Below are positions 2,635-49,151 of a stretch of 64,000 nt of DNA, piece after piece. The notes under the pieces were generated by a model that worked only from the letters and a program-made list of their open reading frames with translations, did not search any database and was not told where the DNA came from. A program made the position numbers and the translations under genes. The stretch spans positions 61,008,001 through 61,072,000 of the forward strand of contig NC_043010.1 in NCBI RefSeq assembly GCF_006345805.1. The letters are read 5' to 3'. Numbering within the stretch: position 1 is the first letter of the stretch; every line of letters starts with the position of its first letter. The DNA comes from Octopus sinensis. Taxonomy: Eukaryota.

Positions 2635-2892
2635 CTCCTCCATGAGTATGGTGAGCTAGGTCAAGCGTGTGTGTCCATACAGACAAATATTACAGTATCG
2701 TTTGAGCAGATAACAAAACTCAGTCAATGTGAAAGGTCATTTTCCATTGATATAGTTAACTCACTATAATACACATACACAACTATACCTACCACATACA
2801 GTACAGAACCATGCTATGAACACACCTATATGTATGTATGTATACACACAAACATATATATATGTATATACATACATATATGTGTGTATATA

Positions 2893-3012
2893 TATTGATC
2901 TAAAACATGAATATTATTGACAGTGCCTTTGAAGTTTCGACCAGTTAGGCCATCATTGGATGGGCCAAAACTTCAAAGTCACTGGCAATAATATCCATGT
3001 TTAAGAATAATA
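2893..3012. repeat. Fold-back palindrome of a hammerhead-bearing element
   Basis: AAACATGAATATTATTGACAGTGCCTTTGAAGTTTCG pairs with CAAAACTTCAAAGTCACTGGCAATAATATCCATGTTT. Homologous to 23430-23539 and 48688-48734. Confidence 0.8.
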
Positions 3013-3267
3013 AATTTTTACTTTTAGGAGTAATCCATCAGATAAATGGAAACTTGTTTTTATTATAACAGAACACAAAACAAACAACACACACACATTC
3101 ATATACATATATATATATTATATATTTATGTGATGTTTAATGAATATAAACTATGTTATTATATATACACCTATAATTCTAAGGAAATTAATTCCTCCAA
3201 AATACTAGGTATTGAACCAGTATTTCCTTGGATGAAACCATCCCTTCACAAGGTCAACACAACCTCT

Positions 3268-8363: not shown

Positions 8364-10012
8364 TTAATATATAGTCTGCCATAAAATGGTATTTAATGGG
8401 GTGTACTCTTTAACATTTTTACATGAATTAGCAGCAGTTGTAGCCCCAGCCCCTAAACCAGCCCCTAAAGTAGAACCGACAGCTCCACTCGTACTGCTTT
8501 TTCTTAGTTGCTTATGTGTTCGTCTGTGTCGTTGTAGTTTGCCCGTCTGGGAGAAAGCTTTACCACACACCTCACAATGGAACGGTTTCTCTCCAGTGTG
8601 AGTCCGTCGGTGGATTTGTAACGTGTCCCGGCGGGCAAACCTCTGGATACACAGATCACACGGGTATGGTTTTAGCCCTGTGTGGGTTCGTTGGTGTAGC
8701 TGGAGGCGGTCCCGCTGGGCAAATCGGCGCATGCAAACTCCACACTCGTATGGTTTCTCACCAGAATGTACCCTGTGGTGGATCTGTAGCTTATCCTTGC
8801 GGGAAAATTGCCGAGGACAAAGGGAACAACAAAACGGTTTTTCCCCAGAATGAGTTCTTTGGTGCATCTGCAGTTTATCTCTTCGTGCAAACTTCTTTGG
8901 ACAAACGCTGCATTGAAACGGTTTCTCCCCTGTATGGGTTCGGGTATGAATTTGCAGGTGGTCTTTACGAGCAAATTGCTTCGGACAAAGTTGACACTGG
9001 AAAGGTTTCTCTCCGGAATGAGTGAGTTTATGGGTTTGAAGAGTATTTCGTTGGGCGAAACATTTGGAACATATATCACAAGAATATGGCTTCTCCCCCG
9101 TATGTGTCCTGCGATGCATTCGTAGCTTGTCCCTCTGCGCAAACTGTTTACAGCAGAAATCACAAGGAAATGGTTTCTCGCCGGTGTGAGAACGCCTGTG
9201 GATTTGCAGTTTGTCGTTTCTGGCAAACTTTTTTTGGCAAAACTCACAGGTGAACGGTTTCTCACCTGAGTGAATACGTTGGTGGATTTTCAAGTTGTCA
9301 CGTCGAGCAAACTGCTTGGAACAAGTGTCACAGTGGAATGGTTTCTCTCCTGTGTGGGATCTCTTGTGAATCTGAAGAGTGTGTCTCTGAGCAAACTGCT
9401 TCGGACAATCTGTACAATGGAAAGGCTTCACGCATTTTACATTCTTCTCCTCGCTGTTGTTGTTGTTGTTGTTGTTGTTGATGCTGATGCTTTTATTGAT
9501 GTCATTGTTGCTGTTGGTACTATTGTTGCTGCTGTTGTTGTTGTTGTTGCTGATTTTGCTGCTGTTGTTACTGCTGCCGGTGCTGCTGCTGTTATTGTTA
9601 TTATTATTATTATTGTTATTATTGATATTGTTGCTGTTGCTGCTGTTGGTGGTGGGGGTGCTGCTGCAGGCGGGAGGTGTAGGGGTAGGAGTGGGGGTGA
9701 TACAGTTTGGGGTGGCATTGTTCGCTCTGCAGCTACTACCGCCACCACCACCACCTCCTCCACCACCACAGCAACTGTTATTGCTGTTGGTGCTATTATG
9801 AACGTGATGATGATGATGATAGCTAATACTATGATTACCGTGGGGATGGTGATGGTGGTGGTGGTGGTGGTGGAGGTGGTTGGGAGGAAGCAGTGTCTTG
9901 GGGGAGGGGCTGTGGCTCACAAACGGTTTGGCAGCTTCTGGTTGTTGTTGTTGTTGTTGTTGTTGTTGAGGTTGTGTTTGTTGTTGCTGTTGTTGTTGTT
10001 GTTGCCGTTGCT

Positions 10013-10043
<31 letters not shown>

Positions 10044-10547
10044 TTGTTGCTGCTGCTGCTGCTGCTGCTGACAAGCTGATTCGGTGGAACTGCTCCTTGG
10101 CGACAGCAGAGACGGTTTTTCAATGGAGAGCGGTTCCAGGACCTGACCGTGATGACTCTGGTTTGAAATGTGCTGGTCGTGGGCCTGCCTCAGGACTGAC
10201 CCTTGGAGGGGACTCTGGGGAGGATGCGGCGTGGTCATGTGAACGGGACTCTGTTGACAACGCTGGTCGTTCAAAGACAGGGAAGCGGCAGCCGCTTGCA
10301 GATAACAGTTCTGGGATGCATATTGCTTGGCGTAGATGTTGCTGCATGGCACAATCATTGGTCGGTCATGCGAGACGGCAGCCTGGAAATAGCAGCTCTG
10401 TGCAAACTGCTTGCTGCACATGTCCATAGAGAATTGCTTTTCAGCTGCATGTGACATCCGGCCGTGCGTGGGCAGAGCGTAATGAGGCTGGAACTGTTGG
10501 CTGGGGACATTGCAATGGATCGTCTTCTCACTCATGTATCCGTCCAT
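8364..10547 (-). CDS. C2H2 (Kruppel-type) zinc-finger protein, 11 tandem fingers, 727 aa, N-terminal polyQ/polyH/polyG/polyN region
   Basis: Uninterrupted ORF with 11 repeats of CxxC-x12-HxxxH joined by T/SGEKPF/Y linkers (approx. 8514-9429). The track starts at a TTG (10553); the first ATG is at 10547 in an AAAATGG context. Confidence 0.95.
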
Positions 10548-11677
10548 TTTCAAGCTTTAACCTGGTTTTAATTAAACCATACAAGAAATTTTGCACTCTG
10601 GTCTTGTGGTCAATATCGGCTCGATATGTAAAAGATTAATTGGTTTGAAGGGGATAAACTGCGTGTAATAAATTAAATGATTGTATAGATCCAGTGGGTG
10701 TAGAGATTAATCAGGAAAATATTACATGTGAGATATCGTACCTGCTGTTATAGCAACAGAGCTCACAGTGACTGTCATGGTTGGACACTGATAAAATGAG
10801 GTTTGATTCAAGATTAATCACAAGCGTGTATGTGTATGTCTGTGCATATACATATACAAGTTAAGTTATTCAATGAATGTGTGTATATGTATACATGTGG
10901 GTGTGTGTGCTTTATGTAGTTTAATATATATTTATGTTCATATACATGTAATATATATATTGTGTCACTTAATATAGATATATATACATATAGATGTATG
11001 CTGAATGTCTGAATTAAAGATGCAAGCTATCTGAGTTTTTTTGAAAATTGATGTTTTAACAGAGATGGTTCACTATTTTCTTCCAAAGACAGTGTGTGTG
11101 TGTGTATATGTGAGTGTGTTTGGTGAAAGTCTCTCAGCACTTTTTTTTTATTCAATATTCTTCAGGCAGAGACTTTCTTTGCTCCTTTTGCAGCCTGATT
11201 TTACAACTGGAAGATTTCGCTGATCCCACATTAATTAATCCATCAATCATGTAAGAGTAATTAATAAATTTGATGGGTTTTTCTTTGCACATCACAATCA
11301 CGAGTCTGGCAATATTTTATTGTTGTCTTCCACCAGTAAATATCTTGAAATCAAATTGCTAATTTCAGAAATCAAATAATTACTTAAAAAAAAAAAATGA
11401 ATAAATGTAACGAAGAATAGAGACTATGTAAAGTCAATGATGGTGCTTGATAATAATAAACACGGAGGTTGTAGAACAGTTGATGGGCGCATAGTGACCA
11501 TATTTTATCGAATATAATTACTTCGGTGTCTCTCAAACACATCAGATATGGAGTCCATCTTGCGAATGTCTTTGTCTGCAAAATAAAAGGTGGGAAATAA
11601 GCATTATATATAGATAAATGTTATATAATAACATATAGATAAATGTTATATAATACGCATGGCATATAAATAAACAT

Positions 11678-23276: not shown

Positions 23277-23429
23277 AAAATAGAAAGAAAAAAAAGTGTG
23301 CAGGGTTCAATGGTCCAACATGGCAAGATATTGGTGTTAATGTTTGTTTTTATGTTCAGTTGTAATAAAAACAATTTCACATTAATCTAATGGCTCCCTC
23401 TATACTTTTGTAGAGCACAAATTTATTAT

Positions 23430-23539
23430 TCTTAAACAAGACTATTATTGACAGTTTCAGCCAGTTAAGCCATTATCAGACTGCCAATGGCTTAACTGGC
23501 CGAAACTTCAAAGTCACTGTCAACAATATATTTGTTTAA
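23430..23539. repeat. Fold-back palindrome of a hammerhead-bearing element
   Basis: GTTTCAGCCAGTTAAGCCATT pairs with AATGGCTTAACTGGCCGAAAC. Outer arms are TTAAACAA..TATTGACAGT and ACTGTCAACA..TTGTTTAA. Confidence 0.8.
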
Positions 23540-23759
23540 CCCTTTCGTTACTGTATTTATTTTGAGATGATCTGTGTTTCTTTTAATTACTTTAAATATA
23601 GCAAAGAATTTAGCAAAATAACTTAGTTATCATTCAGCTGGTTTTAGGAACATAAATTGCGACCAAGGTTTGGTGGAAGATTTTAATTCAAAACTTATGA
23701 AAACAAGACATTTGTACTCAGAGCCAGAGCTGGTTTCAGCCAGGTTGGTATCAAAAGGG
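23540..23759. mobile_element. piggyBac-type MITE
   Basis: TTAA|CCCTTTCGTTAC...GTATCAAAAGGG|TTAA, inserted in the terminal TTAA of the adjacent palindrome. Confidence 0.85.
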
Positions 23760-23782
23760 TTAAGAGTATGTATGTGTATATG

Positions 23783-24174: not shown

Positions 24175-24219
24175 TAATCTCTGATGAGGGTCTAAACAGA
24201 CTAGAAACTAGACAGATTA
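24175..24219 (+). ncRNA. Minimal type I hammerhead-like motif with mutated cleavage triplet
   Basis: TAATCT-CTGATGA-G-GGTCT-AAAC-AGACT-A-GAAAC-TA-GAC-AGATTA. Stem I is a perfect 6 bp, but GAC stands where GTC is expected. Confidence 0.65.
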
Positions 24220-29341: not shown

Positions 29342-29394
29342 ATCCAAACAAGAAAGCACAAAAGAACACAACAACGCAAGGACGTATATATATA

Positions 29395-30548
29395 CAAGGC
29401 TAGTTTTTGTATGTGGCAAATGCTCAGGAACAATAAACACTGAAAATGCGCAGAGACCAACTTCCGCCACATTCCAGGGAGAAAAACTAGAAATAGTTGA
29501 TAGCTTCCGTTACCTAGGTGACCAAGTCAGTAGCGGGGGTGAGTGTGCTGAAAGTGTAACTGCTAGAGTAAGAATAGCCTGGCCAAAGTTCAGAGAGCTC
29601 TTACCTCTGCTGGTGACAAAAGGCCTCTCGCTCAGAGTAAAAGGTAGACTGTATGACGCATGTGTACGAACAGCCATGCTACATGGCAGTGAAACATGGG
29701 CCGTGACTGCTGAGGATATGCGTAAGCTCGCAAGAAATGAAGCCAGTATGCTCCGATGGATGTGTAATGTCAGTGTTCATACTCGACAGAGTGTAAGTAC
29801 CTTGAGAGAAAAGTTGGACATAAGAAGCATCAGTTGTGGTGTGCAAGAGAGACGTTTGCGCTGGTATGGTCATGTGGCAAGAATGGATGAAGATAGTTGT
29901 GTGAAAAAGTGCCACACACTAGCAGTTGAGGGAACCTGTGGAACAGGTAGACCCAGGAAAACCTGGGACGAGGTGGTGAAGCACGACCTTCGAACTTTAG
30001 CTCTCACCGAGGAAATGACTAGAGACCGAGACCTTTGGAAGTATGCTGTGCGTGAGAAGACCCAGCAGGACAAGTGAGACCATAACCCGTGGCCCCTACC
30101 TGGGATGTAGCCAGTCCACTTATGCATACCTTTCCTTCTTGGGACACAAAACTCTACTTGTGAAGACTTGTTGAGGCAAGTGAAAATTAAAATCGAAATC
30201 AATCAACATCAATGGAAATTGTAGCTGTGATACCGGTGCCGGTGGCACGTAAGCGAACCATCCGAACATGACTGTTGCCAGCACCGCCCCGACGGGCCTC
30301 CGTGCCGGTGGCACGTAATAAGCACCATCCGATCGTGGCTGTTTGCCAGCCTCGTCTGGCACGTAAAAAGCACCCACTACACTCACAGAGTGGTTGGCGT
30401 TAGGAAGGGCATCCAGCCGTAGAAACACTGCCAGATCAGACTGGGCCTGGTGCAGCCTTCTGGCTTCCCAGACCCCAGTTGAACCGTCCAACCCATGCTA
30501 GCATGGAAAGCGGATGCTAAACGATGATGATGATGATGATGATGATGA
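29395..30548 (+). mobile_element. 5'-truncated, young RTE-clade LINE (ORF C-terminus, 3' UTR, (TGA)n tail)
   Basis: Open frame 29403-30077 reads FVCGKC..LEIVDSFRYLGD..LHGSETW..RRLRWYGHVARM..GRPRKTW. The 3' UTR is shared by many truncated copies in the window. Confidence 0.93.
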
Positions 30549-47584: not shown

Positions 47585-48687
47585 CACAACACTCATTTTC
47601 ATTACTTCCTCTTCCATTCATCTCTCTCTCACCAATTTCTCTTCCTCTTCCATACTGCTTGTACTATTTTTTTATTCCATCTCCTTACCAACAACCAGCA
47701 TCTAGTTGCCCATTAATCTCTCTTCTATTACTTCTTGCTCCTGTCACTCTATTCCCGCACCCTGTCTTAACTTCCCTTCTATTACCTTTTTGCCCCAGTT
47801 CTTTCTCTTTCATCACTCTTTCTTACACTCACCATCTTGGTCAAGCTGACCTTATGAAATGAAGACAGTGTAAAAAAGACTTTTTAGTCTTACCAGGGCC
47901 AAGACAATCTTTCCACTGCTGCCATAAGAAGCATCTAGTATGCTCTGTAAAATGGTAGAACTCAGAGTAGATAAGGCTATAGATTGTAGCATGTAAATAT
48001 TAAGTTAAGAACTCCTTTGGATAGAAAACTTGTAAAATGTCTGTCATATTCTCAGATGTGTGTTTGAGTCCCATGAACTGCTTTCATCTTTCTCCATCCA
48101 AAAGGTTCTTTAACACAATATTTACCATGTTACTATTCATAGCTTCATCCACTTCAAGTTAAAAACAGATTATTTCATGTTTCTTGAAGTTTCTAAATTC
48201 TTATGACGTAACCAATTAAACAGAAGACCCCTTTCGATTTAAACAGAGGTAAAGACCCCCTTCAGTCATGAATGACCATCGAATTGTACCAAGAAAGTTA
48301 CCCTCCGAGGCATAAATTTGGACAAGGTTGTTTATGGAAGACCAGCAGTCACCCATGCATACCGGCCTCCCCTCTCCATGCCACTGATATTATCCAATGG
48401 AAGGGAAAAGGGGCCGATACGGCTTGGCACCAGTGACATCACAACTCATTTCTACAGCTGAGTGAACTGGAGCAACGTGAAATAAAGTGTCTTGCTCAAG
48501 AACACAACTCAGAGCCTGGTCCAGGGATTGAACACACTACCTTGTGATTGTGAGCCTGATACTCTAACCACTGAGCCATGTGCCTTCACATATGTATATA
48601 TATGAATGTGTATGCGTATACGTGTATGTGTGTGTGTGTGTTGACTCAAAGGAGACTGTAATGAAGCCAAAATTAACTTCAATGCAT

Positions 48688-48734
48688 CACAGTCTAATGA
48701 TGGTTTAACTAGCTGAAACTTCAAAGTTACTGTC
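48688..48734 (+). ncRNA. Decayed full type I hammerhead-like motif
   Basis: cACAGT-CTAATGA-T-GGTT-TAACT-AGCT-GAAACTT-CA-AAGTT-ACTGTc. All three stems are visible, but the core has G5 changed to A. Confidence 0.65.
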
Positions 48735-49151
48735 ATTATTCTTGTTGAAGAATGATAAATCAGCAGTGGTGCCCCAGCATGGCCACGGCCTTTGGGCTAA
48801 AACATTTTTAAGGATTTTTAAGGATTTGTACTCAACAGAAGTGAAGTACAGAGTAACCCATCAAATTAATGTAAAATTGTTTTTATTATGATTGAACGTA
48901 AAAACAAATATTAATTTTTATATATAAATATATTCTTTTATTTATTTCAGTCATTTGACTGCGGCCATGCTGGAGCACTGCCTTTAGTCGAACAAATCAT
49001 CCCCAGGACTTAATCTTTGTAAGCCTAGCCTAGTACTTATTCTATCAGTCTCTTTTGCCGAACTGCTAAGTTACAGGGACGTAAACACACAAACATCGAT
49101 TGTCAAGTGATGGTGGGGAGGCAAACACAAACATATATATATATGTATATA

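What the first reader, a model, noticed from the sequence alone, without database searches (positions are those of the whole stretch)
23430..23539. Third hammerhead family reconstructed from three loci, two of them fold-backs
Seen: 48688-48734(+), both arms of 23430-23539 and both arms of 2893-3012 align to RCAGU-CYRAURA-U-GGYY-UAACU-RGYY-GAAACUU-CA-AAGUC-ACUGUC. This gives stems I, II and III with a GUC site. Each copy has different lesions (CUAAUGA, CUGAUAA, CCAAUGA). The two palindromes invert at different points within the ribozyme. Inference: independent inversion events in one family, with an ancestral core of CUGAUGA or CCGAUGA.
Basis: partly seen in the sequence, partly recalled or inferred. 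Interest (0 to 1): 0.7.

Follow-up and report, generated by a model that had tools for sequence, protein, structure and literature searches.

The report
Dead Penelope stubs with variant hammerhead
These three spots are decayed short scars of an old Penelope-type jumping gene whose front end folds like a self-cutting RNA with one non-standard core letter, and the scars suggest that each mirror-image insertion was likely made as two DNA copies of the element's uncut messenger RNA joined head to head.

Summary
The three loci are real homologues, but not a free-standing ribozyme family. They are decayed copies of the 5' leader (pLTR) of a Penelope-like retroelement with Hydra-clade motifs: RT, GIY-YIG endonuclease, long 3' UTR, TATA box, minimal type I hammerhead, tail, start codon. 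The ancestral core resolves to CCGAYGA (U4C). That dinucleotide reads CG 38, TG 74, CA 53 of 213 arms, the pattern of CpG decay, so textbook CUGA copies are mostly decay products. All five window arms are broken. Of 99 palindromes, 94 are short: 53 junction classes, 46 with an arm starting about 31 nt after the TATA box, 67 pairing a long and a short end, none two long ends. Arms rarely start at the cleavage site (2 of 108). Best reading: two cDNAs, primed at two internal sites of the capped, uncut leader, joined head to head at insertion. Self-cleavage and the start site are untested. The scan already noted twin-primed Penelope stubs of other families in this genome, and a decay-made canonical core in another genome (unreviewed).

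The parts
23337..23484 (-). Locus A long arm: family positions 5 to about 163 (stem I 5' strand, core CUGAUAA, stem II, 11-nt deletion of stem III and cleavage triplet, full tail)
23485..23539 (+). Locus A short arm: positions 14-68 (stem II, stem III, GUC triplet, stem I 3' strand); first core strand missing. Junction 5/14 has no microhomology; a G precedes position 5 on the long arm's strand
23540..23759 (.). Later insertion into the end of the short arm: 220-bp high-copy element with short inverted ends and TTAA on both sides (piggyBac-like MITE; label recalled, not tested)
2890..2962 (-). Locus B short arm: positions 6-79, core CCAAUGA, triplet mutated to GGC
2963..3085 (+). Locus B long arm: position 27 to end of tail; G12 mutated. 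Junction 6/27 lies next to the recurrent 6/28 microhomology class (5 other loci, all retrieved with this locus as query)
48641..48760 (+). Locus C, solo copy: position -42 (decayed TATA region) through the ribozyme (48689-48733, core CUAAUGA, triplet GUU) into the tail
48761..48823 (+). Later insertion of about 63-65 bp that splits the tail of locus C
48824..48912 (+). Locus C, rest of the tail

Best explanation
The three loci are broken copies of the hammerhead-shaped leader of an old Penelope-like retroelement whose inferred ancestral core was CCGAYGA, and the two palindromes were likely made at insertion as two cDNAs of the uncut element RNA joined head to head. Shown: leader order TATA box, ribozyme motif, tail, ATG, ORF; CpG-type decay of the core; a wall of arm starts at positions 5-6; one long and one short end per insertion; microsatellite flanks. 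Inferred: transcription starts at position 5 (capped); the endonuclease nicks both target strands; each 3' end primes reverse transcription at an internal site of the leader (about +79/84 and about +163); both cDNAs run to or near the cap; their 3' ends join through 0-4 nt of microhomology. RNA from the pLTR promoter gives the 130-250 bp stubs; read-through RNA gives solo promoter-bearing copies such as locus C and the large inverted insertions. Predicted, untested: the master ribozyme was weak (U4C) and needed a dimeric stem III.
For: Element: RT and EN followed by this ribozyme on one strand in single loci (L162, L158; EN to tail in L141); TATA, ribozyme, tail, ATG, ORF start in L333; tail to ATG also in L343. 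Core: position 11-12 CG 38, TG 74, CA 53, TA 12, other 36 of 213, like the CpG sites at 30-31 (67/86/76 of 252) and unlike true TG sites (CA 4 of 247, 3 of 250, 3 of 229); CG is commonest (15 of 31) in arms whose other two CpGs survive; same pattern in each subfamily; majority of 71 loose contig ends in an independent read set reads CCGAUG. Junctions: earliest arm start 5 in 35 and 6 in 11 of 94, upstream of 3 in 2, about 31 nt after TATATAAA; G before position 5 in 23 of 35 versus 5 of 27 elsewhere, 10 of 15 without microhomology, p 0.024. Ends: 67 long+short, 22 with one intermediate end, 5 short+short, 0 long+long of 94; 11 of 12 large inverted insertions likewise. In 42 of 72 the short arm holds 5' sequence that the long arm lacks, so neither is a copy of the other. 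Arms agree at subfamily sites (65 of 69 versus 38 shuffled). Frangieh 2024 (PMC11167929): a purified PLE protein nicks and extends both strands, starts at two internal sites bounding the tail, and uses uncut RNA.
Against: No RNA, start-site or cleavage data for this family. Most palindromes came from top-scoring hits of palindromic or motif queries, which inflates particular junction classes; in the two sets not chosen by upstream sequence only 27 of 108 arm starts fit 5-7. 'Short palindrome' was defined as both arms starting after -5; 5 of 99 fell outside. 20 of the 35 position-5 junctions have microhomology, which in the common classes forces the G, so the cap signature rests on 15 cases. 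42 versus 28 is not itself significant (p 0.12). Arm discordance is 12 of 57, 15 of 71 and 18 of 80 at three sites. Several recurrent centres (9/14, 8/15, 11/12) are near-symmetric and also fit hairpin priming. TG exceeds CA at the core site (74 versus 53, p 0.076), so a minority CUGA master is possible. Clade assignment rests on motifs in broken frames, with no tree.
Confidence: 0.68

Rival explanations
1. Fold-back: one cDNA snaps back, or an antisense transcript self-primes (proposed for head-to-head Penelope palindromes in PMC3846280), and is copied on itself.
For: Arms agree at subfamily sites far above shuffles; near-symmetric recurrent centres 9/14 (7), 8/15 (5), 11/12 (3); published proposal (passages).
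Against: In 42 of 72 long+short palindromes the short arm has 5' sequence the long arm lacks while the long arm has the tail; junctions 5/5 to 5/8 leave no room for a loop; the wall sits at the predicted sense start, with a suggestive extra G.
Confidence: 0.14
2. DNA-level events after insertion: one symmetric junction or a solo copy that later inverted or lost its centre by microhomology deletion.
For: Microhomology of 1-4 nt at 49 of 86 junctions without inserted bases; microhomology-type deletions do occur in this family (stem III loss in locus A; the same loss visible in L003).
Against: A deletion across a palindrome centre would seldom leave one arm complete to the same base, yet 46 of 94 do; it does not explain the long+short end rule. 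Arms decayed independently (18 shared versus 536 unshared non-CpG changes).
Confidence: 0.08
3. Two RNA molecules, held together by the palindromic stem III as a ribozyme dimer, each template one arm.
For: Stem III is a perfect 10-nt palindrome: computed duplex -12.5 kcal/mol, no fold as an isolated monomer; dimer model for PLE hammerheads in PMC4209133; 8 of 71 palindromes differ at two diagnostic sites.
Against: Random pairing of subfamilies would give about 38 of 69 concordant at position 65; observed 65. Dimers of RNA from one source locus are not excluded.
Confidence: 0.07
4. The master had a canonical, active CUGA core, and the CCGA/CCAA forms are secondary.
For: CUGAUGA is the commonest single 7-mer (30 of 204); all 26 published Hydra rows have CUGA.
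Against: CA (53 of 213) cannot arise from TG in one step and is about 1-2 in 100 at true TG sites (Fisher p 5e-27); CG leads in the least decayed arms and occurs in every subfamily; my pattern search excluded CA copies, so the bias runs against my reading.
Confidence: 0.03

Closest known systems
Hydra clade of C-terminal EN+ Penelope-like elements (Craig et al. 2021, PMC8557442; read: passages, section 11, supplement part 2)
   Same: RT then GIY-YIG; RWK, DKT, CxCX5C linker, CxxC and CxH around E and N; microsatellite targets; hammerhead with a base after A9 and the same ACUU/AAGU stem III as several Hydra magnipapillata families; inverted 5'-truncated copy with a one-sided tail.
   Different: Core CCGAYGA, whereas all 26 listed Hydra rows have CUGA; not Hydra-1_oBim, whose motif differs; 3' UTR about 1.1 kb; tail about 80-85 nt rather than 30-40; ORF starts about 20 nt after the tail.
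Poseidon PAc of Anolis (Frangieh et al. 2024, PMC11167929; read parts 1-2 of 4)
   Same: Two internal RT start sites bounding a tail; both strands extended; uncut RNA is the main template; AT-rich targets.
   Different: There the ORF starts inside stem II and the sites lie in the ORF; here both inferred sites lie in the leader. The paper does not model head-to-head stubs in the parts read.
Minimal type I hammerheads of metazoan PLEs (Cervera and de la Pena 2014, PMC4209133; read parts 1-2 of 4)
   Same: Short stem I, unpaired base before G10.1-C11.1, palindromic stem III, thousands of decayed singles, pairs on opposite strands.
   Different: The core variant noted there is U3-A8; U4C is not mentioned in the parts read. 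U4C is known from a viroid, weak in vitro but sufficient in vivo (PMC3088659, passage).
Adineta vaga Penelope families (Arkhipova et al. 2013, PMC3846280; passages)
   Same: pLTR with TATA box, inverted pLTR, tail on one arm, palindromic head-to-head junction.
   Different: That paper favours self-priming on an antisense template and leaves the matter open; the counts here favour a capped sense template.
Non-LTR retrozymes (preprint 10.64898/2026.07.22.740005; read part 1 of 5)
   Same: Type I hammerhead of PLE origin in short non-coding repeats.
   Different: Retrozymes are head-to-tail tandem units; these copies are dispersed solo or head-to-head and continue into a coding element.

Membership tests
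EN+ Penelope-like element | RT followed by C-terminal GIY-YIG endonuclease on the same strand as the pLTR | tested here: met
   tblastn of P0109 (weak RVT_1 hit) covers aa 7-702 across loci; RT/EN then ribozyme in L162, L158. Pfam gave nothing on my 8 broken fragments; relatives carry PF26215, RVT_1 or GIY-YIG below curated cut-offs (2 of 9).
EN+ Penelope-like element | pLTR both before and after the ORF, with promoter and hammerhead | tested here: met
   5' copy in L333, 3' copies in L141, L162; TATA consensus.
EN+ Penelope-like element | Inverted 5'-truncated copy with tail at one end only | tested here: met
   67 of 94 short and 11 of 12 large inverted insertions.
Hydra clade | RWK and DKT motifs | tested here: met
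   Both read in the broken frames of L344; single locus.
Hydra clade | CxCX5C linker; CxxC and CxH around conserved E and N | tested here: met
   L141 linker; L151, L154, L164, L178 C-terminal motifs.
Hydra clade | (TA)n or microsatellite targets | tested here: met
   Microsatellite within 25 nt at 61 of 75 long ends and 49 of 70 short ends versus 2465 of 15960 background windows; repeats are mixed TA, CA, TG.
Hydra clade | Phylogenetic placement by RT | not tested
Hydra clade | Canonical (CUGANGA) hammerhead | tested here: not met
   Family ancestor CCGAYGA versus CUGA in 26 of 26 rows. Filed therefore as Hydra-like with a variant ribozyme.
Minimal type I hammerhead of PLEs | Stems I and II, G10.1-C11.1, unpaired base after A9, GAAA, palindromic stem III, NUH triplet | tested here: met
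   Column counts; 16 of 145 ungapped arms still pass (10 CUGA, 6 CCGA; sample enriched). None of the 5 window arms passes.
Minimal type I hammerhead of PLEs | Rfam hammerhead match | tested here: not met
   0 gathering-level hits in 6 best loci; none among the 150 of 184 window hits shown.
Minimal type I hammerhead of PLEs | Self-cleavage | not testable with these tools
   Indirect only: 1 of 68 and 1 of 40 arm starts fit positions 44-46.
Non-LTR retrozyme | Head-to-tail tandem units each with a hammerhead | tested here: not met
   All 12 loci with two separate long arms are head-to-head; 99 palindromes.

The most novel reading that the evidence does not exclude
A Penelope-like lineage amplified to thousands of copies while its masters kept an intact hammerhead fold with an attenuating U4C core that begins at the first transcribed base; host CpG deamination later wrote the textbook core into dead copies. 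Its stubs record the cap site and both reverse-transcription start sites, and so show in the genome that head-to-head Penelope insertions are twin-primed on a capped sense RNA rather than self-primed on an antisense RNA.
Probability: 0.45. Interest if true: 0.6.

Novelty: new variant of a known kind. Interest (0 to 1): 0.4.

Why it matters
How Penelope-like elements build their head-to-head ends, and whether their hammerheads need to cut, is open in the papers read (PMC3846280, PMC11167929, PMC8557442). This family offers about a hundred countable junctions that favour two cDNAs from a capped, uncut sense RNA, and names a short leader that can be tested in the existing in vitro system. It also warns that motif searches for CUGANGA in methylated genomes can count decay products as intact ribozymes. 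The window loci themselves are dead scars, and the scan has reached the twin-priming reading on other families of this genome, so the added value is the U4C ancestry and the start-site wall.

Tried and rejected
Rfam: no hammerhead hit in the window list shown or in the 6 best loci. Pfam on broken fragments: nothing; P0001/P0002 no hit in the local copy. Protein atlas unavailable. Sequencing runs: no RNA holder listed; no evidence either way. Laying contigs of four runs on locus A gave no piece spanning it, so orthology and dating were not possible; summed depths are not copy numbers and were not used as such. Copy number is only bracketed: about 900-1200 arms from exact-pattern counts divided by match rates (57 / (3 of 57 to 7 of 106); 21 / (1 of 57 to 2 of 106)), a lower bound because the samples are top hits; 0 in 400 kb arbitrary sequence puts it under about 20,000. 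Monomer folding of four intact copies puts the hammerhead fold 3.6-5.6 kcal/mol above the minimum; not evidence on activity. No covariation test: copies decay neutrally. Tandem retrozyme and MITE readings rejected (unequal ends, coding continuation). No intact ORF found. Lunse et al. 2017 was not held, so U4C in PLE hammerheads may be in print there or in supplements I could not see; searches made. Rows dropped: 339 hits to 273 non-redundant arms; 437 arms, 395 with the anchor, 225 non-redundant anchors, 99 palindromes; of 30 tail loci 4 lacked the anchor and 24 remained after collapsing duplicates; 57 pattern loci gave 56. The output was cut for a few rows; counts come.

Full report
Observation. 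The three loci were read directly and are homologous: blastn E 1e-6 to 3e-15 inside the window. A profile built from genome copies finds six segments in the window (five arms, locus C split in two) and nothing else, and nothing in 40 arbitrary 10-kb stretches or their reversal. The quoted lesions and the two different junctions are correct. Family positions below count from four bases before stem I: stem I 5-9/45-49, core 10-16, unpaired U 17, stem II 18-21/27-30, GAAA 31-34, palindromic stem III 34-43, triplet 42-44.

What the family is. Genome searches returned dispersed copies. Walking upstream gave, in order, a TATA box 27 nt before position 1, about 1.1 kb of shared non-coding sequence, a GIY-YIG-type domain and an RT. 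L141 carries endonuclease, UTR, ribozyme and tail in one piece; L162 and L158 add RT. L333 shows the other end: TATA box, ribozyme, tail, then an ATG about 20 nt later and the ORF start; L343 shows the same tail-to-ATG link. So the ribozyme and tail are the leader of the element's mRNA and are repeated after the ORF, that is a pLTR. The motifs RWK, DKT, CxCX5C, CxxC and CxH match the Hydra clade (PMC8557442 section 11); no tree was built. Non-CpG divergence from consensus averages 8.7% over 179 arms and no intact ORF was seen, so the family looks old. Earlier scan notes call this an octopus genome; I did not test that.

Ancestral core. Among 273 non-redundant arms, position 11-12 reads CG 38, TG 74, CA 53, TA 12, other 36 of 213. 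Known CpG sites behave alike (30-31: 67/86/76 of 252); true TG sites give CA in 3 or 4 of about 240 (Fisher p 5e-27). CG leads where the other CpGs survive (15 of 31), and the pattern holds in every subfamily split tried. The majority of 71 loose contig ends from a read set also shows CCGAUG. All 26 published Hydra rows have CUGA. U4C is reported for a viroid as weak in vitro but sufficient in vivo (PMC3088659, passage). A minority CUGA master is not excluded (TG 74 versus CA 53, p 0.076).

Junction table. A two-arm alignment over 225 non-redundant anchors found 99 close palindromes, 94 with both arms starting after position -5. They fall in 53 junction classes. The earlier arm starts at 5 in 35 and at 6 in 11; only 2 start before position 3, although the reference included 148 nt of upstream sequence. 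Position 5 is 31 nt after the first T of the TATA box, the usual spacing to a start site (established knowledge). A G precedes position 5 in 23 of 35, against 5 of 27 elsewhere; without microhomology 10 of 15 (p 0.024), suggestive of a copied cap. Ends: 67 long+short, 14 short+intermediate, 8 intermediate+long, 5 short+short, 0 long+long; 70 of 94 shorter ends lie at 72-86. Twelve large inverted insertions are all head-to-head and 11 follow the same rule. Arms agree at subfamily sites (45/57, 56/71, 62/80, 65/69; shuffled means 29, 36, 40, 38), yet in 42 of 72 the short arm starts earlier than the long one (28 the reverse, 2 ambiguous), so neither arm contains the other. Flanks are microsatellite-rich (61/75 and 49/70 versus 15% background). 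In the two sets not chosen by upstream sequence, short palindromes are 26 of 56 and 17 of 24, and arm starts fit the cleavage site in 1 of 68 and 1 of 40 but fit 5-7 in 16 and 11. Caveat: enrich for palindromes, complete cores and the queries' own junction types.

Mechanism. A purified PLE protein nicks and extends both strands, starts at two internal RNA sites that bound the tail, and uses uncut RNA (PMC11167929). Applied here (inference): both target ends prime cDNA on the leader, at about +79/84 and about +163; both run towards the cap; the two 3' ends join by short microhomology. One RNA can serve both if the second cDNA displaces the first (PLE RTs lack RNase H; recalled). This accounts for the start wall, the unequal ends, the matching subfamily letters and the non-nested arms. 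Locus A (5/14) and locus B (6/27) are such stubs; locus C (from -42) came from read-through RNA. The published alternative, self-priming on an antisense template (PMC3846280), fits the near-symmetric centres but not the non-nested arms or the wall. Post-insertion erosion and two-RNA dimers are weaker rivals. Stem III can form a 10-bp duplex between two RNAs (-12.5 kcal/mol) but does not fold alone, as described for PLE hammerheads (PMC4209133). Cleavage is untested; its rarity among insertion ends could also mean that cut RNA is simply not copied.

Novelty. The structure is the known Penelope arrangement and the element a Hydra-like family not found among earlier notes by sequence. Seven literature searches did not show a U4C master core in a PLE or a twin-priming account of head-to-head PLE stubs, but Lunse et al. 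2017 was not available. The scan's own unreviewed notes already give twin-primed stubs for other families here and a decay-made canonical core in another genome; my reading was stated before I saw them, and they are not independent proof. Verdict: real, explained, a new variant of a known kind; interest 0.4.

Noticed in passing
window 23536-23763: 220-bp element with short inverted ends and TTAA on both sides, inserted in the short arm of locus A; very high copy by read depth and seen in other loci (e.g. twice in L051). Looks like a piggyBac-type MITE (label recalled).
   Followed up: partly
window 8364-10556 (-): 730-aa open frame encoding a C2H2 zinc-finger array protein with polyQ, polyH and polyN tracts.
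   Followed up: no
window 24181 (+), 14086 (-), 13764 (-): Three other hammerhead-core-like motifs of different sequence; the one at 24181 has matching flanking stem I strands but a GAC triplet.
   Followed up: partly
window 48761-48823: Short insertion ending in a tandem 10-nt repeat that splits the tail of locus C; likely the 3' end of another retroelement.
   Followed up: no
window as a whole: Three copies in 64 kb against 0 in 400 kb of arbitrary sequence: local enrichment or chance, unexplained.
   Followed up: partly
window 23455 region and L003: The same deletion of stem III between short direct repeats appears in locus A and in an unrelated copy, so this lesion may recur or come from a deleted master.
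   Followed up: no
L081:387-857, L082:1081-1401: GIY-YIG-type frames of other Penelope-like families lie next to or inside copies of this family.
   Followed up: no
window 29343-30077 (+): 244-aa frame resembling the C-terminal part of an RTE-type LINE reverse transcriptase (resemblance recalled).
   Followed up: no
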